IMG/VR virus record: IMGVR_UViG_2585427768_000008
Coordinates: 1-22,381 of that record
DNA from: a virus
Taxonomy: Duplodnaviria; Heunggongvirae; Uroviricota; Caudoviricetes
Direction: 5' to 3' (one strand)
Length of the DNA stretch: 22,381 nt
Shown: piece after piece, positions 2,631-15,567 of the stretch
Position numbering within the stretch: position 1 is the first letter of the stretch
Layout of the letters: each line of letters opens with the position of its first letter
Translations under genes and position numbers: made by a program
The notes under the pieces: model-generated
What the model saw: only the letters and a program-made list of their open reading frames with translations
Told to the model about the DNA's origin: nothing
The model's database searches: none

Positions 2631-5600
2631 TTAATCCACTCCCACTTTTTTGTTGTACTCGCGGTTAAACCGATCCACGGCAACCTTCATATCCCGCTCT
2701 ACCGATTTCACCATCGCCGCCTGCTGCGCCAGACTGAGAGAACTGTCGGCATAAATGGCATCGCGCTGTTTGCGCAAATCCTTCAGTCTCTTCCGGGTAT
2801 CCTGCATAAGCCCGTTCATCAACAATTTTCCGTTGTTCTCGTCAATGAACGCCGTTCTTTCTGCACCGGTCAGACTCTTCAGCTCTGCGTGATACTGCGC
2901 AACCTCTGTCATCCGGTCGTACATCTTCTGCTGGTCTGCATACGGCATCACCTCACCCGAAATTTTCCCCAGGAAGGGCACCTGCTGTTCCGGTATATCA
3001 ATACCATTCAGCGATTTCACCGCCGCATCCGTGGTTTTGGAAATGAAGCGCCCTGTCCCTCCGGAGATATAGTCAATCCAGAATTTCAGCGATTCCGGTG
3101 TGATATCCACCGCGCCGGGACGATACTGGCTGCCACCTGAGAACGCATTCAGCCAGAATGCAAACGCCTTGTACGCTTCTGGCGTTGAACGTCTTCCCAG
3201 CTGGCTGTCAGGTTTTGGTGTACCAAACGGCATGTTCTCCTGGTAAATCTGCGCCCCCATGAAGTTTTCGTTCATGGCAAGATTCGCAAACGGACGCAGA
3301 ATTGTCGGTGCTGCATTTTTCAGCAATGCCCCCGACAACGTTTCCGACGTCTCGCTGCCGATCGGGCTGAATGCCCCCAGGATACCGCCGACAACATTAC
3401 CGGCAGCACGTGAAGCAGTCAGGTCGCCCGCTGCCACACCTTCAGCTGTATGACCAAGCAGGAAGAACACGTTGTACCCGTAAGGCAGAGGAATACTCCA
3501 GTACTCACCGGCCTTGCCCCCGAACATCGATTTCATGATGACGAGGTTACGCTCTTTCACATGAGACGGTACTTTGTCGTACCAGTTACCCCCGTCATCA
3601 TCCTCCCCCGCCACACTGCGGTTAAGCGAGCCAAGCAGATAACCCGCTCCCACAGCTGCAAGCACGATTTTCTGCGGTACATTGAGATTCTTCCAGCGAA
3701 GGCGCTCCAGTAACGGCCCGTCGCCATTAAGATGTCCGAGCGTTCTCACCAGGTTTGCGGTCCCCTGAATGCTGGCGTTGGCAAACATGTACAGCGAGTT
3801 CATCAGCATCCCCTGCTCACCACGACGGTTAAAGTTCACCGTCATGTTTTTGGCAAGAGACGCCGCCTGCTGGCGTGACAAACCGGCATCACGGGCGTGT
3901 TTATAGGCAGAAAGACGCAGAGCGTTTTCAACCGCGCCGTTGGCATCCTCGACCAGGTTCAGGAACGAATGCCATGCACCGATACTCTGGCCTTTCCATC
4001 CGCCCTTCGCCAGCGACACAAGGCGATCCATTTCCTTCTGCTGGCCCTCAAGGTCACCCATGTTAAACCAGCCGGTTTTACCTCCGTCCTCAACAAACTC
4101 TTTCCACACTTTCTGCCACTGTGCGCCTTTGCCCGTGAGGGTTTTACCCCGCAGACTTGCGTATACGGCTGACATGGCGGAACGGCTGTCTTTCACCACA
4201 GCCAGCGCGGATAAGTTATCCAGCTCTTTCAGTTTACCGTCGCTCCTTCCCTGCTCAGCCTTCAGGTTCATCACCGCAGTCTGCACGTCACGGATGAAGT
4301 TACTGACCAGAAATTCCGGGTTATACGACGTGTTCACCGTTGCCAGGAAGCGGTTAACTTTCCCCAGCGTACGGATTACGGCGTTACTGGTTTCCGGCCC
4401 CATGTTCTTCATCGCACGCATCAGGCGCGGATCATGAAGTTTAATGTAGTAAGTTTTGCCGTCCTTTTTGGTGGTGAAGTAGCGATCCGCCATCATTGCC
4501 ATCGGCACAGGGCGCTCGACAACTTCGCGAATGGTTTCACCAGTTTCCTGGTCCTTGCGCTCTGCAATCACACGCATTGTATCCGGTCTGTCATCAGTGA
4601 ATCCCTGCCAGTAATCCTTGTCGGGATTATCCTGTACCAGTTTCAGGAAGGCGTTACCCACTTCATTTTTGCGATTGCGGATCAGCGATTCACTCAAATC
4701 CTGTATCGCCTGAGTGGAAGGAGACTGTGCGCGGGATGCACGCCCCATGGCCTGCTTACTTTCACGCCCGCCGATGGTGAATCCCTTGCCTGTACGTGGC
4801 TGTGACACCACACCGTCAACATCCTGCCCTTTCAGGGGGACGTAGTAACGGTAGGCTTTCTGCCAGGCATCCACCACGCCGCTCTCTTCCAGTCCTGCCT
4901 CACGGATAATCTCACGGCGACGGGCCAGCATATCGTCAATAATCCCTGCCAGACGGTCATACTGTGCCTGTTTGCCGCTGTTACGCACACGCTGCATGAT
5001 TTCCGCCGCTTCCGCGTTGGTCATCCCCGAACCGCCGTCCGGCATTTTCGGGTTGATTTTCGCAATATGCACGTTACGTTCCGGCGCGTGACGGGCGTAG
5101 AGGTACTCATCCAGATCGGCCTGCGCAATTTTGTAGTCCGCCAGCAATTTGGCCAGCGGCTGAACGTAGCGCTCCTTCATTACGTTCAGGTCGTTTTCCG
5201 CCTTCCCGTGGAAGAGTTCTTCAGCCATATAGGCGTTATTGCTGTCATCTATTTTTCCGCCAGTTTTACGGATATTCTCCTGCACCGCCTTCAGCACCTG
5301 GAATTTATCCTGCATCTGGCGAACAAAACGGGATGCAATTGTCTCTTCCGGCGTCAGACTGCTGGTGCGGGAGTAATACGGCCCCTTGCGAATATCTTCA
5401 GGATAGAGTATTTTATCAACAGAGCCGCGATAAGAATGTTCCCCTTTGGGCAATTGGAGCCCTCTGTGCAGAAGGTTATCGCGGCTTAATTTTTCTCTCC
5501 GGTACAACGTTAAACCGGTCATTTCCATACTCTTCAGTTTTTTCCCGTTTTCCGTACCGTAAACAGATGCCACCTTGTTGATTTCCAGGCGCGACCGGAC

Positions 5601-8600
5601 AGCCTTCATGTGTACCGCTGACACCACCGGATCACCATTTTTATCCACGGCATCAAGCAGCATCACAACCGCGTTTCTTTCTGTCGCGGAACGGTAAATT
5701 GCATCCGGATCGTGCATCAGTTCCGGTAGTCTCTCGATAACATCCATCGGCACCACATGTTTCACACCATTGGTGGCCTTACGCACAGTGTCGCGGGAGA
5801 TAACCAGCGGCAAATCTGGTGCGCCAAGGTGACGCAATACCGGCGGCGTACGCCCGATGTTTACCGTTAAATCCGTTGAGCGCAGAGACTTCATCATTCT
5901 GGCAAGGTCATCACGATAACGCTCGCCCTCACCTTCCGGCACTTTGAACGGATCAGGCTTACCGCTACGGGAGTACTGAGACGATGCGTCCGCGCCATCC
6001 TCACGCGGCGTGTAACCTTCCCGCACACGCTGGCCTAACGTGCGAATAGTTTCGCGAACAAGTCTGATATCGTTCAGTTCCGTCGGCTTCAGTAACCCCG
6101 TACGACGCAGTACCCCTTTGACCAGGGCAACAACACGCTCCCATGCCGCCACGAATTTAATCGGCTGCTTCTCTGCCATATGCGCCAGAAATTCACCCGC
6201 CTGCACTTCCGGTGATTCCTTACCATAAGACGCATCAACCTTACGCCAGGCTTCACGGATGGTGGCGTTATCACTGTCACGGGTTTTCAGCACGGTCTTA
6301 ATAATCGTCTGATATTCCGCTGGCGTGACTACATGCTCCATTGCATGGTGAATAATCTCGTGACGTAACTTCTCGCGAACGGTCCGCCCGTCAGGGATGT
6401 TATCCGCCACCAGGACAATTTCACGTTTATCCGGACGATAGAACGCGTGCACCTTGCCGTAACCGTCGAATGATTCCCCCGCCAGTGCTTCAGCCTCTTT
6501 CTGTGACTTCACCACGCGGACCTTCAGGTCACTGTCCTTAATGCCACTAATCACGCCACGGGCAACAGCTTCAACCTGCGGGACCGGACTGCCTTTGGCT
6601 TCCGCACTACGGTTAACATCCGAAATCAGATTGCCTTCAGGTGTGCGGGTCACGCCCTTACGGGAATAAAACGCAACTCCCTTGTCCGTCTCACGGGTTT
6701 TCAGTGTTCGGAACAAGTGATCGAATGCCTCACGAATACCGCCATCCAGTTCTGCATTCGTCGGATAAGCGTAGGTGTCCGGCTGTCCATGGTCATCCGC
6801 CTTACGGATATTGACCAGATAATCATTCTCCACGCCAGCCATACGCGCTTTATCCTGAACATAACGCTCAAAGGCTCGCGCCGCCATTTCAACATCCGTT
6901 GACCAGTACGGTTTTGAACGAACGCCATCCAGGCGTTCAGAACGACGCAACATGTCACTGCTGTTAATGGCTTTCATCACGCCTTTAAACGCGTCGTAAA
7001 CCTCCTGACGTACCGGATATTCCGCATCAACATACCTGCCGTCTTTAAATACGCGCCCGGCACGCTGTGCTTCCGTCATATAGTCGCCACCTGACGTGAT
7101 CTTCCCGTCAGTGGAAACATCATAACGACCAAAATAATTATCCAGTGAATGGAACCATTCGTGGGCCAGCGCCCCCGGTCCGTTACCTTTTGTCAGGTTG
7201 ATTGCCACCTCACCCGGCTCATAGTGTGCCGCCGCCTTACCCTTACCACGGGCACCAAAAGCAAGCCCAAGACGACCGTTCAGAGAAAGCGCTTTTGTCG
7301 GCACGTTCAGCACGTCAGCCAGGTCATGCAGCGAGTCATAAGCCCGGTTCAAATCAGCCTGACGACGCGGACTTTCCACATAATTACCAAACTGCACACC
7401 ACGAAAACCAAACGCATCACTGAACTGCTCCGGCGAAACATCCCCCTTGCGGCGTTCTGGTCCGGTACGATCGCGGTTGGTGGCGTTACGCTGCTCCTCA
7501 CGCGAGACTTCACGCAGCGCCTTCACCTGATTAACCAGCTCATCACGATGTGTGCGCACATAATCATGTGCATCACGGGCAGACTCAAAACCGCCCTTCA
7601 GTTTCTGCCTGTTTTTGCCATAACCGATAAAAATGTCGCCACTGGCCTTATGCCGGTACACGTCAAAGGTTATTCTGTCATCAGCAGAGGTTGCTGGCGT
7701 TTCCCTTTCTCTGGAGCCTTGTTCATCGAAATATGCTTTCGCCTTTTTCAGTAACTCATCCCGGCTTTCCGAGAAAAAGAGGTCGCGCCCCTTGCTATCA
7801 CGAAGCGAATACATCATTTGCGGCGGATCGTAACGTTTTCCCCCGACAAACGAATAAACACCGGACCTGACACGATAGCCGGATGCTTTATCAATCTGCA
7901 ATGCAGAAAGCGTACGGAGCAGTTTCCAGGTATCCGACATGCTCCGTAACCCCGGCTTACTGTCCATCATATCAGCCAGTTTCGCTGCCGGAATTTTCCC
8001 CTCCAGCATACCGGCAGTAGCTTCGCGACCGCTTTTAACAATGCTGATCCATTTCTGCATGTTACGGCTTGTTCTGGTGGGAATTTCACTGCGATACAAC
8101 GCCATCATTGCCAGCGTGTCACTATCCACACCTTCTTTTTCCAGACGGGCATAATCCGGCTTTGGAAACAGTTTGCTCAGTGGTTGTGTCGCGTACTCCC
8201 CATCCTCCAGCGTTTTACCCATAGCTTCAGCAAGCTGCGCATAACGGTGTTTTGCCGCGCCCTTAATCTCCTCGCCAAAGTCTTCAATTTTCGCACCACG
8301 CGCCTGCTGGTGAGTGCTCGGTTTATCTACCGGCACCGGCACCTCAGTATCCGGAACATCGGTTATGGTCTGGCGATTATCCCCGGTCTGTCTGCGTGCT
8401 TCTGCCTGCTGTGCCAGTTCCGGAAGGGAGTCACGAACCATACGAGGGAGTGATTCAGGCTGTGGCATATCAACCCCACGCTGACTTTCAGGTGCAGGAA
8501 GACCTTCACGCACTGGTGCTGTGGCGTTCTGCTCATCCGGTGACGGCAGACCACGACGAACTGTTTCGCCCTCCAGTATTTCCCCCTGGCGACCAGCGGC

Positions 8601-10484
8601 ATTTTCCGGTGCCTGCGCACGTCCTTTCTGGAAACTCTGGCCCTTCACCTCACCGGTTGTGGTAAAACGACCACCACGTCCGGCCTGATTTTCATCCGGC
8701 GTACGCGCTACTTCTCCTGGTAACGGATATCCCTGTCCGGGATGAATATCGCCGGGAGCGGGAAGGCGTGGACGCTCAGTTAACTCCTGTGCTGTCGGAC
8801 CGGCATCACCTTCAGCCATCTGGGAACGCACCAGTTCTTCCGCCGTCGGCGCGTTGCCACGAGCAAGACGGGCCTGCACTTCTGTATCATCCCCCGTAAA
8901 ACCACGGAATCGCGGGTCACGCATGAACGCGGGCTGTTCCATCGGATCAGCATCAGTAATACGCTCTCCGTCAGCCAGAGTGTTAATGGTCTCCGTTGCC
9001 ACATCTTCAGAGAACGCAGGATTATCCATTTCAACGGCATACTGATTCTCGCCTTTCTTCACTACGGACGGTTTCAGGCCGGTGGCGCTGGCATTGCGGA
9101 AAACGTCGCTCCCCAGAGCACTTTTTTCATCCGTGAAATAACGGTTGTCCGGACGCACCTTTTCAATGCGTTCTGCTGGTCTGGACGCACCACTCTCGTT
9201 AATTTCAATACGAACTTCATCCGGATCGCGGAACCGCACCGTCGGGTAAATACTCCCGTCGCCATCATCCGCATTTTCCGGCTGTGGCTGTGCCTCCGGT
9301 CTGGCCTCCCGCTGAGGGCGAAGCACATCACGTATTGCCTGTAACTGCTGCTCTTCAGTATCAGTACGCCCTTCCTTCTGGCTGAGTTTTCGGTATTCCT
9401 CAAGCAGTTCAGGGCGCGGCTTCGCCTTCAGCTCATCCATCACCGCCTGTCGCTTCGCCTGTTCATCCAGTTCATTCAACAGCTGGCTGGCGGCTTCCCG
9501 GCGATGAACGGCAGACGTGTCTCCCTCATGTGCCATATCCGCATCAGCATACTGTTCCAGAAGCTGCTCGCGATTCATCCCCTGCATAGATTCACGATGC
9601 TGTGCCACCGGATCAACCGGTTCGGGTTGCGGAGCCGATTCGTCCTGAGGAACGCTTTCAGCCTCACGCATGGCTGCTTCATCTGCCGCCTGACGTTTTC
9701 CACGATATCCGGCAGCCGCACCGAATGGTGCCCCCATTGCAGCACCAAGGGCTGCACCTTCGATCGTTGCGTCAGCCACGCCCTCCCACGGTGACACATC
9801 CATTCCGGCGGTCTCACGCAATGCCGTGTTTTCCTGATAGCGTGAATAGCCACCCTGCGCCGCATTAATCGTCCCCTGTTCCGTGGCATTTCTGACAATG
9901 CCGCTTTTAACGGTCTTCGCCGTGCCCCGCATCGCCAGATTAAGCAACTGAGCATCGCCCAGTTTTGCCGCCATGGCATTCACAGCCAGCAATTCAGGAT
10001 CGGTTGCCAGCTGCGCACGCACCTCATCGGCAACACGCTCTTTTGCCAGGTCCATTTTCTGGCGGTCAGTAAGCTGCGCGTGCTGCGGATCTGCATCAAT
10101 TGACAAAAAGGTCTGCTGAAATTTCGGTGACTTCGCCAGCTCAGAATAATCCGCGTTAAGAACAGCATCTGCCGCTGCCATTGCACTCCGCCCTTGCGCA
10201 CTGACAGTGGAATGGGTGATCAGGCCTGCCTGGAAAAAATCCGGCATTTTTTTATCGACAGCTTCGGCTGCCAGTGCTGTGGCTCTTTCCGGCTGCATCC
10301 CTGCCGCGATGTATTTTTTCTCCAGCCCGGCGGTCAGCACTTTTCGCAGAGTGACATCACCCAGCTTTTTAGTCACACCGCCTGCAACCATATCCGGTAC
10401 AAGCGCACCAATCAGGTTAACTCCACAAGCCTTCGCAACTTCAGGGATGCCGACACCTTTAATCGGCTCATCAAGATTTTGCAT
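2631..10484 (-). CDS. giant multidomain protein (about 2617 aa) with zincin-like HExxH motifs; function unknown, possibly polyvalent-protein-like
   Basis: Uninterrupted 7.9-kb ORF on the minus strand. Preferred start is ATG at 10484 (AAGGA 7 nt upstream); the track start at 10517 has no RBS. HEWFH encoded at 7149-7163 and RHEIIHHAMEH at about 6334-6363. No Walker A or methyltransferase motifs seen. GC content visibly higher than the neighbouring AT-rich operon. Confidence 0.9.
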   Translation of the reverse strand: MQNLDEPIKGVGIPEVAKACGVNLIGALVPDMVAGGVTKKLGDVTLRKVLTAGLEKKYIAAGMQPERATALAAEAVDKKMPDFFQAGLITHSTVSAQGRSAMAAADAVLNADYSELAKSPKFQQTFLSIDADPQHAQLTDRQKMDLAKERVADEVRAQLATDPELLAVNAMAAKLGDAQLLNLAMRGTAKTVKSGIVRNATEQGTINAAQGGYSRYQENTALRETAGMDVSPWEGVADATIEGAALGAAMGAPFGAAAGYRGKRQAADEAAMREAESVPQDESAPQPEPVDPVAQHRESMQGMNREQLLEQYADADMAHEGDTSAVHRREAASQLLNELDEQAKRQAVMDELKAKPRPELLEEYRKLSQKEGRTDTEEQQLQAIRDVLRPQREARPEAQPQPENADDGDGSIYPTVRFRDPDEVRIEINESGASRPAERIEKVRPDNRYFTDEKSALGSDVFRNASATGLKPSVVKKGENQYAVEMDNPAFSEDVATETINTLADGERITDADPMEQPAFMRDPRFRGFTGDDTEVQARLARGNAPTAEELVRSQMAEGDAGPTAQELTERPRLPAPGDIHPGQGYPLPGEVARTPDENQAGRGGRFTTTGEVKGQSFQKGRAQAPENAAGRQGEILEGETVRRGLPSPDEQNATAPVREGLPAPESQRGVDMPQPESLPRMVRDSLPELAQQAEARRQTGDNRQTITDVPDTEVPVPVDKPSTHQQARGAKIEDFGEEIKGAAKHRYAQLAEAMGKTLEDGEYATQPLSKLFPKPDYARLEKEGVDSDTLAMMALYRSEIPTRTSRNMQKWISIVKSGREATAGMLEGKIPAAKLADMMDSKPGLRSMSDTWKLLRTLSALQIDKASGYRVRSGVYSFVGGKRYDPPQMMYSLRDSKGRDLFFSESRDELLKKAKAYFDEQGSRERETPATSADDRITFDVYRHKASGDIFIGYGKNRQKLKGGFESARDAHDYVRTHRDELVNQVKALREVSREEQRNATNRDRTGPERRKGDVSPEQFSDAFGFRGVQFGNYVESPRRQADLNRAYDSLHDLADVLNVPTKALSLNGRLGLAFGARGKGKAAAHYEPGEVAINLTKGNGPGALAHEWFHSLDNYFGRYDVSTDGKITSGGDYMTEAQRAGRVFKDGRYVDAEYPVRQEVYDAFKGVMKAINSSDMLRRSERLDGVRSKPYWSTDVEMAARAFERYVQDKARMAGVENDYLVNIRKADDHGQPDTYAYPTNAELDGGIREAFDHLFRTLKTRETDKGVAFYSRKGVTRTPEGNLISDVNRSAEAKGSPVPQVEAVARGVISGIKDSDLKVRVVKSQKEAEALAGESFDGYGKVHAFYRPDKREIVLVADNIPDGRTVREKLRHEIIHHAMEHVVTPAEYQTIIKTVLKTRDSDNATIREAWRKVDASYGKESPEVQAGEFLAHMAEKQPIKFVAAWERVVALVKGVLRRTGLLKPTELNDIRLVRETIRTLGQRVREGYTPREDGADASSQYSRSGKPDPFKVPEGEGERYRDDLARMMKSLRSTDLTVNIGRTPPVLRHLGAPDLPLVISRDTVRKATNGVKHVVPMDVIERLPELMHDPDAIYRSATERNAVVMLLDAVDKNGDPVVSAVHMKAVRSRLEINKVASVYGTENGKKLKSMEMTGLTLYRREKLSRDNLLHRGLQLPKGEHSYRGSVDKILYPEDIRKGPYYSRTSSLTPEETIASRFVRQMQDKFQVLKAVQENIRKTGGKIDDSNNAYMAEELFHGKAENDLNVMKERYVQPLAKLLADYKIAQADLDEYLYARHAPERNVHIAKINPKMPDGGSGMTNAEAAEIMQRVRNSGKQAQYDRLAGIIDDMLARRREIIREAGLEESGVVDAWQKAYRYYVPLKGQDVDGVVSQPRTGKGFTIGGRESKQAMGRASRAQSPSTQAIQDLSESLIRNRKNEVGNAFLKLVQDNPDKDYWQGFTDDRPDTMRVIAERKDQETGETIREVVERPVPMAMMADRYFTTKKDGKTYYIKLHDPRLMRAMKNMGPETSNAVIRTLGKVNRFLATVNTSYNPEFLVSNFIRDVQTAVMNLKAEQGRSDGKLKELDNLSALAVVKDSRSAMSAVYASLRGKTLTGKGAQWQKVWKEFVEDGGKTGWFNMGDLEGQQKEMDRLVSLAKGGWKGQSIGAWHSFLNLVEDANGAVENALRLSAYKHARDAGLSRQQAASLAKNMTVNFNRRGEQGMLMNSLYMFANASIQGTANLVRTLGHLNGDGPLLERLRWKNLNVPQKIVLAAVGAGYLLGSLNRSVAGEDDDGGNWYDKVPSHVKERNLVIMKSMFGGKAGEYWSIPLPYGYNVFFLLGHTAEGVAAGDLTASRAAGNVVGGILGAFSPIGSETSETLSGALLKNAAPTILRPFANLAMNENFMGAQIYQENMPFGTPKPDSQLGRRSTPEAYKAFAFWLNAFSGGSQYRPGAVDITPESLKFWIDYISGGTGRFISKTTDAAVKSLNGIDIPEQQVPFLGKISGEVMPYADQQKMYDRMTEVAQYHAELKSLTGAERTAFIDENNGKLLMNGLMQDTRKRLKDLRKQRDAIYADSSLSLAQQAAMVKSVERDMKVAVDRFNREYNKKVGVD

Positions 10485-10562: not shown

Positions 10563-11270
10563 ATGGTTCAGAATGAAAAAGTGCGCAAAGAATTCGCCCA
10601 GCGGCTAGCGCAAGCCTGTAAAGAAGCTGGTCTTGATGAACATGGTAGGGGAATGGCTATAGCCCGTGCCCTTTCTCTTTCGTCCAAAGGCGTTAGCAAA
10701 TGGTTTAATGCTGAGTCTTTACCGCGTCAGGAAAAAATGAATGCGCTTGCGAAATTTCTAAACGTTGATGTTGTTTGGCTTCAGCACGGCACTTCGTTAA
10801 ATGGAGCGAATGATGAAGATACTCTTTCATTTGTTGGCAAATTAAAAAAAGGGTTAGTGCGCGTGGTTGGTGAGGCAATTCTTGGTGTTGATGGTGCCAT
10901 CGAGATGACCGAAGAGCGCGATGGGTGGCTCAAAATTTATAGCGATGATCCAGATGCCTTTGGCCTTCGTGTGAAAGGAGACAGCATGTGGCCCAGAATA
11001 AAATCAGGAGAATATGTACTCATTGAGCCTAACACCAAAGTATTCCCGGGTGATGAGGTGTTTGTCAGAACCGTTGAAGGACACAACATGATTAAGGTTC
11101 TTGGCTATGACAGAGATGGAGAATACCAATTTACAAGCATTAACCAGGATCACAGGCCTATAACGTTGCCTTATCATCAAGTAGCAAAGGTGGAGTATGT
11201 AGCTGGTATTCTGAAGCAATCTCGCCATCTGGATGACATCGAGGCAAGGGAGTGGCTGAAAAGTTCGTGA
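10563..11270 (+). CDS. cI: CI-like prophage repressor (N-terminal HTH, C-terminal S24 LexA-like peptidase)
   Basis: 235-aa ORF. N-terminal HTH-like segment (GMAIARALSLSSKGVSKWFN) and C-terminal GDSMWP serine motif with a downstream conserved lysine (MIKVLG), as in LexA/CI autocleaving repressors. Position and orientation match cI relative to the pL operon. Confidence 0.88.
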   Translation: MVQNEKVRKEFAQRLAQACKEAGLDEHGRGMAIARALSLSSKGVSKWFNAESLPRQEKMNALAKFLNVDVVWLQHGTSLNGANDEDTLSFVGKLKKGLVRVVGEAILGVDGAIEMTEERDGWLKIYSDDPDAFGLRVKGDSMWPRIKSGEYVLIEPNTKVFPGDEVFVRTVEGHNMIKVLGYDRDGEYQFTSINQDHRPITLPYHQVAKVEYVAGILKQSRHLDDIEAREWLKSS

Positions 11271-11330: not shown

Positions 11331-11672
11331 ATGGCGTTCACTGACCTTGAATATCAAGCGGTCAAAAAAGAAGTTCACCAATTCATTGAAAGCATAAGGC
11401 CGCCTGAACATATCCGCAATGAACTGGATATTGTTTATAGCATCAATGACCAAACGATAGATATCGGCGAACAGCGCCCCGTGTGGCAGGGCAACCCAGG
11501 TGAAACAAACATCCTGCCATCAGCAAGAATCAAGTACATACGTTCTCTGGATAGATGGAAAATCTATTGGATGCGGAAGGATATGAAATGGCATCAGTAC
11601 AGTACTGAACTTTCGCTGACTGATGCGCTTGAGCTTGTGCGTGCTGACCCGGATTGCTGCTTCTTCGGATGA
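11331..11672 (+). CDS. hypothetical protein, first gene downstream of cI
   Basis: 113-aa ORF with strong RBS GAGGAGG before the ATG; same strand as cI and no terminator between them. No recognisable motifs. Confidence 0.6.
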   Translation: MAFTDLEYQAVKKEVHQFIESIRPPEHIRNELDIVYSINDQTIDIGEQRPVWQGNPGETNILPSARIKYIRSLDRWKIYWMRKDMKWHQYSTELSLTDALELVRADPDCCFFG

Positions 11673-11739
11673 GTGAAGAGACGTTTGGATGATGGATGGT
11701 CGCAGAGATGCGGCCTGATTCTAAAATAGGATATAAAAA

Positions 11740-12201
11740 ATGAGAATACTAGGTGTTAGAGCGGCGCCCAAAGTTACATCTTTTGTTGTATATTGCACTA
11801 ATGAGTCTGCACTCAAATGTGTTGATGTTATTAAAATACCTTCGACCTTAGACACACCAGAAAAATTAAAGTATGTGAGAAATAACATCCTCGACATTCT
11901 TAATTTATATAATGTTGAATTAGCTGCCATACGCGTTACTGAATCAAACTCTGATAATCTTAGCATTGACCGCCTTTATATAGAAGCTGTTATTCAAGAA
12001 GCATTTTCAAGCAGTGATGTAAGAAAATATTACACTATTAGAAAATCTGGCATGAAATCATCATTGAACCTAACAGAGATCGAGTATAAAGAAATATTGA
12101 AGTCACACCGCAATATAAATGGAATCGATAATTCTGGTTTTACAACTGAAACAAATGAAGCTGTTTTGGCTGCTCTATCTGCGGAGGTAAGGGGATGCTA
12201 A
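11740..12201 (+). CDS. hypothetical protein, upstream partner of Ser/Thr kinase
   Basis: 153-aa ORF in a markedly AT-rich segment; AGGA upstream of the ATG; 3' end overlaps the kinase start by 7 nt. No recognisable motifs. Confidence 0.6.
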   Translation: MRILGVRAAPKVTSFVVYCTNESALKCVDVIKIPSTLDTPEKLKYVRNNILDILNLYNVELAAIRVTESNSDNLSIDRLYIEAVIQEAFSSSDVRKYYTIRKSGMKSSLNLTEIEYKEILKSHRNINGIDNSGFTTETNEAVLAALSAEVRGC

Positions 12202-13241
12202 CTCCATACAAAAGAGCTGATGTAGAATTCGAATGGATTAGTGATCTAGAAGAACAGGGTTGTTTTTCAAAAGTATATCTGGCTCATGACAGACACCTAG
12301 CTCATGACTTGGTGATTAAAGAAATAGAAAAAAAAGAAAACACTAACCACGACGACTACTTTAATGAAGCAAGGCTTCTCTATAAACATGCACATCCAAA
12401 TATTGTGCAAGTTCAGTATGCTGCTCAATGTGAGAGCAATATCTATATAGCCATGCCATTTTATCATAATGGTTCGCTAAACCAATTAATGAAAAAAAAT
12501 AATCTTACAAGCAGGGAGATAATACGGTATTCCATTCAATTTTTAAGTGGACTTTATCATATACACTCAAAAGGTCTTATGCATTTTGATATAAAACCTA
12601 ATAACATTATGATATCAAACAGAAATGAGGCCATGCTATCTGACTTTGGATTATCTCAGTTAGTCAATGAGGAATCGAGAGCTGCGCCTGAGTTTGGATA
12701 TCATTTTCATGTGCCACCGGAATATTTTTCTTTATCAACAAATGATTATAATTTCACATATGACATATATCAGGCAGGATTAACCATATATAGAATGTGT
12801 GTTGGACATGATAATTTTGAAAGAGAAAGATCTGCATTTAGCACGATTGAACAACTCAGAGAGTCGATAATTAATGGCTGCTATCCATTAAAAGAGTATC
12901 CTCCCCATATACATAAAAAATTAATAACAATAGTGAACAAATGCATTCATGTAGATCCAAATGAAAGATATCAATCCGTACTAGATGTACTAAACGATCT
13001 CTCAGCTATAAGTGATGGCGTTCTTGACTGGCGTCTACAGATGACGAAACCAACTAACGGCACATGCGAATGGCAAAAAAAGTCTGGGGACGCTATACTG
13101 TCTATAGTTTTTGACGCAGAAAATTCGTCTACTACTGGTTTTCGTTTATACGATGATGGGCGGAAAAGGCGTGCTACGAACTTAACAATATCCTCAGGAT
13201 GTACCCCTACAAAACTGTATAGGTTATTAAAGGATAACTGA
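12195..13241 (+). CDS. eukaryotic-like (Hanks-type) Ser/Thr protein kinase
   Basis: 348-aa ORF with GGAGG 7 nt upstream. Kinase subdomain motifs in order: glycine-rich-like loop EQGCFSKVY, VIK lysine, catalytic loop HFDIKPNN (about 12583-12606), DFG (12642-12650), PPE (APE-like), DIYQAG. AT-rich. Confidence 0.85.
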   Translation: MLTPYKRADVEFEWISDLEEQGCFSKVYLAHDRHLAHDLVIKEIEKKENTNHDDYFNEARLLYKHAHPNIVQVQYAAQCESNIYIAMPFYHNGSLNQLMKKNNLTSREIIRYSIQFLSGLYHIHSKGLMHFDIKPNNIMISNRNEAMLSDFGLSQLVNEESRAAPEFGYHFHVPPEYFSLSTNDYNFTYDIYQAGLTIYRMCVGHDNFERERSAFSTIEQLRESIINGCYPLKEYPPHIHKKLITIVNKCIHVDPNERYQSVLDVLNDLSAISDGVLDWRLQMTKPTNGTCEWQKKSGDAILSIVFDAENSSTTGFRLYDDGRKRRATNLTISSGCTPTKLYRLLKDN

Positions 13242-13650: not shown

Positions 13651-13717
13651 TCGTCATCAGCAGGACGCATTACTCACCAGGGCGGTGAATATACAACGAT
13701 TCGAATATGAATCTACG

Positions 13718-13732
13718 GCGCTGACAAAGCGC
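13718..13732 (+). promoter_or_regulatory. nutL-like boxB RNA hairpin (P22 type)
   Basis: GCGCT GACAA AGCGC: 5-bp stem with GACAA pentaloop, the boxB form I recall for phage P22. Lies between the pL-like promoter and the N-like gene. No convincing boxA found upstream. Confidence 0.6.
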
Positions 13733-13897: not shown

Positions 13898-14998
13898 ATG
13901 ACACGCAGAACTCAGTTCAAAGGCAATTCACGTTCTCGTCGTCGTGAGCGTTTAAAGGCAAAGGCATTAGCTAACTGCGTACTGGCCCGCGAAGAAGCAA
14001 TAAGTTCAGAAGTATTACACCGCCCTACTCTAAGCAGAGCGCAGATTCAGGCTAAAGGTACTCACGAAACGCCTGAGCGCATAGAAGACGCTAAGCCAAT
14101 TAAGTTCATGGCACAGGACGTGATCTGGCAACAGAAAGAATACAGACGCAATCTGGAGCGAGCAGCCATTGTGTACGCGAATGAGTTTGGACATAAGCAA
14201 CCAGAAACTGGTGTATGTCTTCCAAACGTAGCCATTTACGCGGCAGGCTACCGGAAATCAAAACAACTGACGGCGAGGGGATTGATGACCACGCCTTCAG
14301 TTTTGCCGCAAAAGTTATGGCGTCCGCTTGCAGAGATTAAAAACTTCGTTGAAAAAATGCCTGATGGAGTTCGCCTTACGGAAGTTACTAAAAAAGTTAA
14401 GACATTTGCCGAACTGTCAGGAAAGGAGAGAAACCAGCTCATAGATTTTATCGATAAACGGGAAAGCATCATTGTATTTAAGGTCAGAAAAGAAGGTTCT
14501 GGTAACGGAGTAACCTTTTTCCGCCACAAAAAATATGGATATCCCAAACGGGAAGGAAACGTCACAATCACTAAGGACCTTCAATCAAAATTATGTACCA
14601 GATGCGGGCAGACAAAATCAGTCAATGATTTTTATTCAGATGCCAGCAAGCGTGACGGGAGAGCCATTTATTGCAAGAAGTGCGAATCTGCAATGAAACG
14701 CTCACGCAGAAAATGCAACAAATTAATTCTGCAACAACAGGAACCTGAAATGAATAACCTCAAAGCAGTTTCACCTTCACCAGAAATACTCAGAAAACAG
14801 GCTGAAGAATTGCTGAAAGCCGCCGAAATTGCGGAGAAAAAACGCCAGGAAGATGATGCATTCAACAAAAAACTTGCGCCCTTAAAACTTGAAATCCTTC
14901 AGGCCGCCGGAAAAATGCAGCTTAAACTGGACGAATTCATCGACTGTATGGATGAAATGAATAAAGCAGTTCAGAAGCTTAAAGAGCTGACCGCCTGA
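13898..14998 (+). CDS. N-like transcription antiterminator with arginine-rich N-terminus, extended by a CxxC...CxxC zinc-ribbon and coiled-coil C-terminal region
   Basis: 366-aa ORF, AGGAGG 5 nt upstream. N-terminus KGNSRSRRRERLKAKALAN resembles the arginine-rich motif of the P22 N protein (recalled as GNAKTRRHERRRKLAIER) and pairs with the P22-type boxB upstream. CTRCGQ...CKKCES motif near residue 250. Much longer than typical N proteins. Confidence 0.6.
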   Translation: MTRRTQFKGNSRSRRRERLKAKALANCVLAREEAISSEVLHRPTLSRAQIQAKGTHETPERIEDAKPIKFMAQDVIWQQKEYRRNLERAAIVYANEFGHKQPETGVCLPNVAIYAAGYRKSKQLTARGLMTTPSVLPQKLWRPLAEIKNFVEKMPDGVRLTEVTKKVKTFAELSGKERNQLIDFIDKRESIIVFKVRKEGSGNGVTFFRHKKYGYPKREGNVTITKDLQSKLCTRCGQTKSVNDFYSDASKRDGRAIYCKKCESAMKRSRRKCNKLILQQQEPEMNNLKAVSPSPEILRKQAEELLKAAEIAEKKRQEDDAFNKKLAPLKLEILQAAGKMQLKLDEFIDCMDEMNKAVQKLKELTA

Positions 14999-15029: not shown

Positions 15030-15389
15030 ATGAACGAAACAGAACTGAAGCACATTATCGCCCTGCTTCTGGAAGATGCCAGACAGGTTTATCGACTTAG
15101 CCCAAATTCCGCAACGCTGACACGCATCCAGATGGCAGAAAAAGCACTGAAACAGGATAATGAAAACAGCGCATCCGAAGTTGATGCTAATGGTGAAAAT
15201 GAAGTAATAGAAATAAACAGCAATATCAGCGATAGTTGCGTCGCTTACAGCCACCAAATAATTCGTGTAAGTGCAAGAATAATGGAAGTGATGGCAAGTG
15301 AGCTTGAAAAGAACAACATCAAGCCCACTGATTGTTGTTTAAGAACCGTAATGAACGTTATTTATTACTCGATGTTCCGAAGTCGCTAA
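15030..15389 (+). CDS. hypothetical protein
   Basis: ATG at 15030 with GGAG 6 nt upstream (the track start at 15009 is TTG without an RBS). 119 aa, no recognisable motifs. Confidence 0.5.
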   Translation: MNETELKHIIALLLEDARQVYRLSPNSATLTRIQMAEKALKQDNENSASEVDANGENEVIEINSNISDSCVAYSHQIIRVSARIMEVMASELEKNNIKPTDCCLRTVMNVIYYSMFRSR

Positions 15390-15567
15390 CAGCGTCGAGT
15401 TTTTCATCAAAAAATGATTCAAATGCATCGTAAAATACGGCAATAGCACCGCCCTTATCTACCGCGGCAGGAACTGCCTTTTGAGGTATATCTTTCTCCC
15501 TGAATTGTGTGTTGTAGGTATCGACAGCCAGCCGCATCAGAAACATCACTTTTTCTTCTTGTGTCAT
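15358..15567 (-). CDS. hypothetical small protein (69 aa), antisense to the surrounding operon
   Basis: Minus-strand ATG at 15567 preceded by a strong AAGGAGAG Shine-Dalgarno; 3' end overlaps the convergent + gene by 32 nt. Confidence 0.45.
   Translation of the reverse strand: MTQEEKVMFLMRLAVDTYNTQFREKDIPQKAVPAAVDKGGAIAVFYDAFESFFDEKLDAVSDFGTSSNK

What the first reader, a model, noticed from the sequence alone, without database searches (positions are those of the whole stretch)
13898..14998. N-like antiterminator is three times normal length and carries a zinc-ribbon plus coiled-coil extension
N proteins are typically about 100-130 aa and intrinsically disordered. This ORF is 366 aa: the N-terminal arginine-rich motif is followed by CTRCGQ...CKKCES (about residues 233-262) and a K/E-rich helical C-terminus. 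This may be a fusion of N with a second function, or an unrecognised frameshift joining two genes.
Basis: partly seen in the sequence, partly recalled or inferred. Interest (0 to 1): 0.55.

Follow-up and report, generated by a model that had tools for sequence, protein, structure and literature searches.

The report
Two phage genes joined by lost stop
The "triple-length N antiterminator" is an ordinary 127-residue phage N gene read straight into the separate gene behind it, because one base of N's stop codon differs in this one draft assembly, and that difference looks like a sequencing error.

Summary
The 366-aa ORF (13898-14998, +) is in the sequence as described: arginine-rich N terminus, CTRC/CKKC at residues 233/259, helical K/E-rich tail. 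It is not a long N protein. Residues 1-127 are the N protein of phage 933W (126/127 identical). Residue 128 (GGA) sits where every relative has N's TGA stop. After one more codon comes the ATG of a separate 237-aa gene (PHROG 2539, function unknown) that has its own Shine-Dalgarno site. 127+1+1+237 = 366.

A single T>G at 14279 makes the fusion. All 31 other loci retrieved have TGA. The fused protein is recorded on one contig only (KEN06022.1, E. coli 7-233-03_S3_C3). The identical unfused N is on 365 contigs and the identical 237-aa protein on 31.

A near-identical assembly (JORO01000083.1) has the stop. Of 10 substitutions private to this contig, 7, including 14279, are GGT>GGG, the classic Illumina systematic error (P about 6e-13 by chance). 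The best reading is a base-call or consensus error. The alternative is a private, neutral stop-loss in a prophage that has already lost cro through its tail genes.

The downstream gene is a conserved early-left gene: winged helix, optional zinc ribbon, helical hairpin. Interest is low.

The parts
13666..13732 (+). nutL (N-utilisation site) upstream of N
   Evidence: 67/67 identical to the feature annotated 'nutL' in phage 933W AF125520.
13898..14278 (+). N antitermination gene proper, 127 codons
   Evidence: Pfam N_peptide, E 1.6e-12, residues 2-127. phrog_271 'anti-termination protein N-like', E 1.5e-38. 126/127 identical to 933W N, with G27C. The exact 127-aa protein is recorded on 365 contigs.
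14279..14281 (+). GGA codon in place of N's TGA stop; the T>G substitution at 14279 creates the 366-aa ORF
   Evidence: Alignment A1. 31 of 31 other loci have TGA. No non-T variant was found in IMG/VR or in the GTDB representative genomes. The sister assembly has T. The sequence context GAGG_T>G is the Illumina GGT>GGG error motif.
14275..14282 (+). Shine-Dalgarno site of the downstream gene, overlapping N's stop (GAGGGGAT here, GAGGTGAT in relatives)
   Evidence: Duplex energy with the 16S 3' end is -14.7 kcal/mol for the relatives and -9.9 kcal/mol for the window. The block GCGAGGTGATTGATG is conserved behind three different upstream sequences.
14285..14998 (+). Separate 237-aa gene (PHROG 2539, function unknown), first gene after N in the early-left operon
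   Evidence: phrog_2539, E 6.6e-130, full length. Annotated as a separate hypothetical protein in PhiR5_2, phiSTEC1589, POCJ13, ML35, O104:H4 and ES5. The exact 237-aa protein is on 31 contigs. Homologues of 201-269 aa occur in other Enterobacterales.
14309..14527 (+). Predicted winged-helix domain (residues 9-81 of the 237-aa protein)
   Evidence: AlphaFold model with pLDDT 86-96 in this region. Weak Foldseek matches to winged-helix domains (BlaI, PadR/LmrR, Rpc34, RTP), E 0.05-0.5.
14561..14710 (+). Zinc-ribbon module (CTRC...CKKC, residues 104-133 of the 237-aa protein); absent in 6 of 29 family members
   Evidence: CxxC positions. Alignment A2 shows the module missing in P0019-22, P0028 and P0029. 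It resembles the N-terminal zinc ribbons of phage HNH, EndoVII, Stc1 and Lar-like proteins.
14780..14992 (+). Conserved C-terminal helical hairpin / coiled coil (residues 166-236)
   Evidence: Helices 166-190 and 192-236 (pLDDT by 10-residue block: 73 for residues 161-170, 90 for 171-180, 79 and 73 for 181-200, 90-95 from residue 201). This is the best conserved part of the family (invariant columns).
15030..15389 (+). Next early-left gene (119 aa, PHROG 2982, function unknown)
   Evidence: phrog_2982, E 4e-77. Called as a 119-aa gene in the source contig and in relatives.

Best explanation
The 366-aa ORF is two ordinary, normally separate genes of a lambdoid (933W-like) prophage: N (127 aa) and the first early-left gene behind it (237 aa, PHROG 2539). 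They are run together because the T of N's TGA stop reads G at 14279. The genes are 3 nt apart and in the same frame, so loss of the stop gives N-Gly-Leu-(237 aa) = 366 aa. The change is private to one draft assembly (JORV01000119.1, E. coli 7-233-03_S3_C3) and has the GGT>GGG signature shared by most private substitutions on that contig. It is therefore most likely a base-call or consensus error, not biology. In the real phage, N is made from its own ATG and stops at TGA. That stop lies inside the strong Shine-Dalgarno site (GAGGTGAT) of the next gene, which is translated separately from its own ATG at 14285. Shown here: the anatomy of the junction, its uniqueness, and the error signature. 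Inferred: that the base is wrong in the assembly rather than mutated in the strain.
For: 1) Junction. The window has AGG GGA TTG ATG where PhiR5_2, phiSTEC1589, POCJ13 and 933W have AGG TGA. 31 of 31 other loci carry TGA.
2) Arithmetic and annotation. In the 98.5%-identical phage PhiR5_2, N (127 aa) and a 237-aa hypothetical protein are separate CDSs 3 nt apart. The same holds in ML35, O104:H4 and ES5.
3) Rarity. The exact 366-aa protein is on 1 contig. The exact N is on 365 contigs and the exact 237-aa protein on 31. No non-T junction was found in IMG/VR or in the GTDB representatives, against 25 IMG/VR contigs with TGA. None of the 49 complete E. coli genomes that carry the junction is identical to the window (the best, ML35, has 1 mismatch in 201 nt); the 36 of them listed are each annotated with two features at the junction.
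4) Independence of the downstream gene. It is a full-length PHROG 2539 member. All 28 homologues are stand-alone proteins with a conserved MTPSxLP start. The gene occurs behind 933W-type N, a 90-aa N, a phage-21-like N with an intervening gene, and N36-type N.
5) Error signature. The sister assembly JORO01000083.1 differs from this contig at 5 sites in 14.6 kb. Three of them, including 14279, are GGT>GGG. The left 10.4 kb has 6 private differences, 4 of them GGT>GGG on the minus strand. That makes 7 of 10 in a class expected to account for 0.9% of random substitutions, P = 6e-13. GGT>GGG is the strongest Illumina systematic-error motif (PMC3295828).
Against: No reads were available, so the base cannot be checked directly. 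Systematic Illumina errors are strand-specific and normally lose out in a consensus. I could not confirm from the tools which platform or assembler was used for this assembly. All seven signature changes are A:T>C:G transversions, which a MutT-type mutator would also produce, although a context-free MutT model fails (P = 1e-9). One of the signature changes (18538) also occurs in two other isolate-derived contigs (L022 and L025), so at least that one could be a real polymorphism. The prophage carries a large deletion, so a real, unselected stop-loss would not be surprising.
Confidence: 0.8

Rival explanations
1. The T>G is a real, strain-private stop-loss mutation in a decaying prophage. The cell could then make an N-Gly-Leu-237aa fusion from N's ATG, and probably still some free 237-aa protein from the weakened internal ribosome-binding site. 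The fusion would be a neutral or mildly deleterious accident, not an adapted protein.
For: The prophage in the window has lost everything from cro codon 23 to LPD38 codon ~187, that is replication, Q, lysis, head and tail genes. The junction shows 4-nt microhomology, which an assembler would not create. N function is therefore no longer needed. cI is intact, so N would be repressed anyway. The internal SD keeps a GAGG core at good spacing, -9.9 kcal/mol.
Against: The substitution belongs to a class (GGT>GGG) that accounts for 7 of 10 private differences on this contig, against 0.9% expected. T>G is among the rarer spontaneous base changes in E. coli (my own knowledge). The variant is seen on a single contig among billions of proteins.
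Confidence: 0.16
2. The long ORF is an evolved, functional N variant. The N-terminal third antiterminates, and the winged-helix / zinc-ribbon / coiled-coil part adds a second activity in cis.
For: The ORF is uninterrupted, and both parts are intact and identical in protein sequence to functional-looking relatives.
Against: There is no second occurrence anywhere. The two halves are separate genes in all relatives, including a sister assembly with 5 differences in 14.6 kb. [quoted passage not shown] By inference, a 239-aa folded C-terminal appendage is more likely to hinder than to help.
Confidence: 0.02
3. The in-frame arrangement N-TGA-TTG-ATG reflects programmed stop-codon read-through that normally makes a little N-X fusion, and the window merely fixes that product.
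For: In E. coli phages the two genes are always in the same frame, 3 nt apart, with a TGA stop.
Against: All E. coli examples share the same junction sequence, so they are one event, not independent conservation. In other genera the spacer is 1, 2 or 20 nt and the frames differ. The stop context TGA-T is not a known leaky context in E. coli (my own knowledge). The layout is fully explained by translational coupling, with the stop inside the next gene's SD.
Confidence: 0.02

Closest known systems
Antitermination protein N of Stx phage 933W / H-19B type (AAD25425.1, 127 aa)
   Same: Residues 1-127 are 126/127 identical (G27C). The arginine-rich motif is the same, nutL upstream is identical, and the position after the cI-stk moron block is the same.
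   Different: In 933W the gene ends with TGA and is followed by a different gene (L0079). Here the stop reads GGA and the ORF runs into the next gene.
Escherichia phage PhiR5_2 (PV340546): N (XSB41356.1) plus hypothetical protein XSB41355.1
   Same: Same two genes in the same order, 98.5% DNA identity over 1.75 kb, and the same junction sequence apart from one base.
   Different: PhiR5_2 has the TGA stop, so the two are annotated as separate CDSs of 127 and 237 aa.
PHROG 2539 (unknown function), the family of the C-terminal 237 aa
   Same: Full-length match, E 6.6e-130. Stand-alone homologues of 201-269 aa lie in early-left operons of lambdoid prophages of Kluyvera, Enterobacter, Klebsiella, Edwardsiella, Salmonella, Providencia and Serratia.
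   Different: Only in this window is it read as the tail of N. No member has an assigned function.
GenBank KEN06022.1, 'anti-termination N domain protein' [E. coli 7-233-03_S3_C3]
   Same: Identical 366-aa sequence. The window is the first 22,381 nt of its contig, JORV01000119.1.
   Different: None. The fused ORF is already deposited, with an automatic name.
N-terminal zinc ribbons of phage HNH / endonuclease VII / Stc1-domain / Lar-like proteins
   Same: The ~40-residue CxxC...CxxC module superposes at 0.5-1.5 A rmsd with 30-40% identity. PHROG hits have E 1e-6 to 2e-9.
   Different: No nuclease domain follows the module here, and it is dispensable in the family (absent in 6 of 29 members).

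Membership tests
Lambdoid N antitermination proteins (Pfam PF25694 N_peptide; phrog_271) | N-terminal arginine-rich motif and a profile match over the whole N length | tested here: met
   PF25694: 48.2 bits against a cut-off of 27.9, residues 2-127. phrog_271: E 1.5e-38. 126/127 identical to 933W N.
Lambdoid N antitermination proteins (Pfam PF25694 N_peptide; phrog_271) | Position directly downstream of pL/nutL, next to the immunity region | tested here: met
   nutL is identical to the one annotated in 933W, at 13666-13732. cI lies at 10563-11270 and stk at 12195-13241, both upstream.
Lambdoid N antitermination proteins (Pfam PF25694 N_peptide; phrog_271) | Small protein (about 90-130 aa) that ends before the next gene | tested here: not met
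   In the window as given, the stop is replaced by GGA and the ORF is 366 aa. The feature is met in all 31 comparison loci. The failure is attributed to one suspect base.
Lambdoid N antitermination proteins (Pfam PF25694 N_peptide; phrog_271) | Antitermination activity at nut sites with Nus factors | not testable with these tools
   This needs a nut-terminator reporter assay.
PHROG 2539 (early-left gene after N, function unknown) | Full-length profile match | tested here: met
   E 6.6e-130, residues 3-237 against profile positions 1-229 of 229.
PHROG 2539 (early-left gene after N, function unknown) | Independent gene with its own start codon and ribosome-binding site | tested here: met
   ATG at 14285 is preceded by GAGGGGAT (GAGGTGAT in relatives). 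26 of the 28 homologues start MTPxxLP, and the two with an AlpA-like HTH N-terminal extension (P0021, P0029) also do not begin there; the others that deviate (P0009 MSP, P0028 MQH) still have their own Met start. The SD+ATG block is conserved behind three unrelated upstream contexts.
HNH / endonuclease VII nucleases | beta-beta-alpha-Me catalytic motif following the zinc ribbon | tested here: not met
   Only the zinc-ribbon part aligns. The model shows a disordered linker and a helical hairpin after it. There is no Pfam HNH or Endonuclease_7 hit.

The most novel reading that the evidence does not exclude
The most novel reading not excluded has two parts. First, the T>G may be real, so that this strain makes an N-(winged helix / zinc ribbon / coiled coil) fusion that still works at nutL. 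That would be a natural test of whether N tolerates a large C-terminal cargo. Second, and independent of the artefact, the PHROG 2539 protein is translationally coupled to N (N's stop lies inside its SD) and follows N of several unrelated types across Enterobacterales. It may be an uncharacterised DNA-binding partner or modulator of the early-left programme, for example an anti-defence or host-takeover factor.
Probability: 0.05. Interest if true: 0.4.

Novelty: not a real feature. Interest (0 to 1): 0.07.

Why it matters
It matters mainly as a caution. A single suspect base in a draft assembly produced a deposited protein (KEN06022.1, 'anti-termination N domain protein') that looks like a new domain architecture. 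The same contig carries at least six other substitutions with the same GGT>GGG signature, two of which change valine to glycine in the giant LPD38 protein. Nothing about N biology changes. One small useful by-product is that the gene directly after N in many 933W-like and other lambdoid prophages is a conserved, uncharacterised protein (winged helix, optional zinc ribbon, helical hairpin), tightly coupled to N translation. It could merit an experiment in its own right.

Tried and rejected
- Evolved N fusion: rejected. The fused protein is on a single contig, and the two genes are separate in every relative.
- Frameshift: rejected. The two genes are in the same frame, there is no indel, and only a T>G substitution is involved.
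- Programmed TGA read-through: rejected. The frame relation is not conserved in other genera.
- Context-free MutT-type mutator as the source of the A:T>C:G changes: rejected. All 7 lie after GG, P = 1e-9.
- Function of the 237-aa protein: NCBIfam gave nothing. PADLOC gave nothing. Pfam gave only sub-threshold Stc1. A PDB profile search gave only the Hpy99I zinc ribbon, E 0.024. Foldseek against the PDB gave only weak winged-helix hits. BFVD gave only zinc-ribbon and uncharacterised matches. The afdb50 library was not available. A faint precomputed Pfam hit to 'YonG_N' (PF27269) led nowhere in the literature.
- Rfam scan of the whole window: no family at gathering score.
- I could not retrieve the strain name of the sister assembly GCA_000713235.1, or the sequencing platform of either assembly.

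Full report
**1. Observation**

The ORF 13898..14998 (+ strand, ATG start, 366 aa) exists as described. It begins with the arginine-rich MTRRTQFKGNSRSRRRERLKAKA. It has CTRC at residue 233 and CKKC at residue 259. Its last 96 residues are 28% K+E. Pfam's N_peptide model matches residues 2-127 only (48.2 bits, cut-off 27.9).

**2. What the ORF is made of**

The closest phage, PhiR5_2 (98.5% identical over 1.75 kb), annotates two genes here. One is N (127 aa). The other is a 237-aa hypothetical protein that starts 3 nt after N's stop.

An alignment of the junction shows AGG TGA TTG ATG in PhiR5_2, phiSTEC1589 and POCJ13, and AGG TGA in 933W. The window has AGG GGA TTG ATG. One base, T>G at 14279, removes the stop. 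The two genes share a frame, so 127 + Gly + Leu + 237 = 366.

The N part is 126/127 identical to 933W N. The upstream nutL (13666-13732) is 67/67 identical to the one annotated in 933W.

**3. The downstream gene is independent**

- It is a full-length member of PHROG 2539, function unknown (E 6.6e-130).
- A search of 5.8 billion proteins with the whole 366-aa query returned only stand-alone proteins of 201-269 aa, from E. coli, Kluyvera, Enterobacter, Pluralibacter, Klebsiella, Edwardsiella, Salmonella, Providencia and Serratia. Almost all begin MTPSxLP; the exceptions are two with an AlpA-like N-terminal extension and two with other Met starts.
- The block GCGAGGTGATTGATG (SD plus ATG) is conserved behind three different upstream sequences. 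These are 933W-type N, a 90-aa N allele, and a non-N sequence in phages that carry a phage-21-like N plus an extra gene.
- In Kluyvera- and Edwardsiella-type prophages the gene again follows N (N_peptide or N36 type), but with spacers of 1, 2 or 20 nt and in a different frame. In Providencia it lies four genes downstream of N.
- In relatives, N's stop codon lies inside an 8-nt perfect Shine-Dalgarno site, GAGGTGAT (-14.7 kcal/mol with the 16S 3' end). The window's GAGGGGAT still pairs at -9.9 kcal/mol.

The normal arrangement is therefore translational coupling of two separate cistrons, not a fusion and not programmed read-through.

**4. How rare the fused form is**

- The exact 366-aa sequence is in the 15-billion-protein collection once. 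It is KEN06022.1, 'anti-termination N domain protein', E. coli 7-233-03_S3_C3, on one contig. The identical 127-aa N is on 365 contigs and the identical 237-aa protein on 31.
- The window is the first 22,381 nt of that contig, JORV01000119.1 of GCA_000713355.1.
- A scan for the junction with any base other than T at the stop position found nothing in IMG/VR or in 185,579 species-representative genomes. The T form is in 25 IMG/VR contigs.
- Of 5,426 complete E. coli genomes, 49 carry the junction. None is identical to the window; the best (ML35) differs at one base in 201 nt, and each of the 36 listed has two annotated features at the junction (ML35 and O104:H4 examined).
- All 31 other loci fetched have TGA.

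**5. Real mutation or error?**

A sister draft assembly from the adjacent accession series (GCA_000713235.1, JORO01000083.1) carries the same early-left region, with N and the 237-aa gene separate. Over contig positions 10418-24998 (14.6 kb) the two assemblies differ at five sites:

| Position | Change | Context | Note |
|---|---|---|---|
| 14279 | T>G | after GAGG | N stop to Gly |
| 18538 | T>G | after GGGGG | synonymous |
| 18547 | T>C | after CCC | synonymous |
| 24875 | T>G | after GGG | |
| 21727 | C>A | | private to JORO |

The left 10.4 kb differs from its three closest relatives at six sites. Four of them (3589, 3606, 4603, 6477) are A>C before CC(CC), which is GGT>GGG on the minus strand. 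The other two (138, 141) lie within about 140 nt of the contig end.

So 7 of 10 substitutions private to this contig fall in the strict GGT>GGG class. That class makes up 0.9% of all possible substitutions on the contig (P = 6e-13). GGT>GGG is the strongest motif of Illumina systematic errors (Meacham et al. 2011, PMC3295828).

A context-free MutT-like mutator would also give A:T>C:G changes. It would not place 7 of 7 after GG (P = 1e-9).

The coding effects are four synonymous GGT>GGG changes (three in LPD38/RecE Gly codons plus one more), two Val>Gly, and one stop>Gly. There is thus no sign of selection either way.

I conclude that 14279 is most likely a base-call or consensus error (about 0.8). 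Caveats:
- There are no reads.
- The platform is not confirmed.
- The 18538 change recurs in two other isolate-derived contigs (L022 and L025). That fits either a replicable systematic error or a real polymorphism.
- The pair 18538/18547 also perfects a short inverted repeat (CGGGG...CCCCG), which is compatible with a real quasi-palindrome correction.

**6. If the base were real**

The prophage in the window is already defective. At 10418-10424 the first 22 codons of cro are joined in frame to codon ~188 of the giant LPD38-domain gene, through a 4-nt microhomology (TAAC). This removes cII, O, P, Q, the lysis genes and the head and tail genes. With cI intact and no lytic functions left, N is not under selection. 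A stop-loss there would be neutral decay.

[quoted passage not shown] By inference, a 239-aa folded appendage would probably impair N rather than extend it. This is not tested.

**7. What the 237-aa protein looks like**

An AlphaFold model built on 29 sequences has mean pLDDT 82.6. It shows:
- a winged-helix-like domain (residues 9-81, pLDDT 86-96);
- a small beta-rich zinc ribbon with a following helix (93-142);
- a disordered linker (144-160);
- a long helical hairpin (166-236).

Foldseek against the PDB finds only weak winged-helix matches (BlaI, PadR/LmrR, Rpc34, RTP; E 0.05-0.5). Against BFVD, the ~40-residue zinc ribbon matches the N-terminal ribbons of phage HNH, EndoVII and Stc1 proteins at 0.5-1.5 A, but no nuclease domain follows.

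The ribbon is absent in 6 of 29 family members. The N-terminal domain and the C-terminal hairpin are conserved. Two members carry an extra AlpA-type HTH at the N terminus.

My working inference, at low confidence, is a dimeric or oligomeric DNA-binding early protein. No known function can be assigned.

**8. Verdict**

The 'long N' architecture is not real. The window contains 933W-type N plus a separate PHROG 2539 gene, joined by one suspect base in one draft assembly. Novelty: not a real feature. Interest: low.

Noticed in passing
window 10418-10424 (ORF 2631..10484/10517, minus strand): Deletion junction. The first 22 codons of cro are fused in frame to codon ~188 of the giant LPD38/LPD5/MuF_C-domain gene (2,617-2,628 aa here, against 2,783-2,784 aa in relatives) through a 4-nt microhomology (TAAC). 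The prophage at the ynfG site has lost cII, O, P, Q, the lysis genes and the head and tail genes. The sister assembly JORO01000083.1 has an intact cro side.
   Followed up: partly
window 3589, 3606, 4603, 6477 (LPD38 gene); 18538, 18547 (RecE gene); contig position 24875: Other substitutions private to this contig that carry the same GGT>GGG signature (one is CCCT>CCCC). Two of them change Val to Gly in LPD38. They are probably further base-call errors in this draft assembly. 18538 T>G also occurs in two IMG/VR isolate-derived contigs (L022, L025).
   Followed up: partly
window 11331-13241: The block between cI and pL is as in 933W. The Ser/Thr kinase Stk (12195-13241) matches PADLOC mad6 (E 7e-50) and PD-T4-6 (E 1e-37) defence models. 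The DUF3024 protein (11331-11672) matches candidate defence family PDC-S43 (E 7e-42). A 153-aa gene annotated as RuvC-family in strain ES5 lies between them.
   Followed up: no
window 14285-14998, and loci L035-L040: The PHROG 2539 family is a conserved, uncharacterised gene that directly follows N of several unrelated types in lambdoid prophages across Enterobacterales. Its zinc ribbon is an optional insert, and two members have an added AlpA-like HTH. In E. coli phages N's stop codon lies inside this gene's Shine-Dalgarno site.
   Followed up: partly
L029 7786-8530 (IMG/VR UViG 2778261105_000012): In this phage the PHROG 2539 gene lies behind a phage-21-like N (145-aa ORF) and an extra 117-aa arginine-rich ORF, with about 350 nt of spacer. 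It keeps the same SD+ATG block.
   Followed up: no
window 15030-15389 (+) and 15358-15567 (-): A 119-aa gene (PHROG 2982, function unknown) and an overlapping, convergent 69-aa ORF. Both are annotated as hypothetical proteins in all relatives.
   Followed up: no
window 138 and 141: Two further private substitutions (A>T, G>T) within about 140 nt of the contig start, in an Ea22-like gene. They may be contig-end errors or repeat-copy variation.
   Followed up: no
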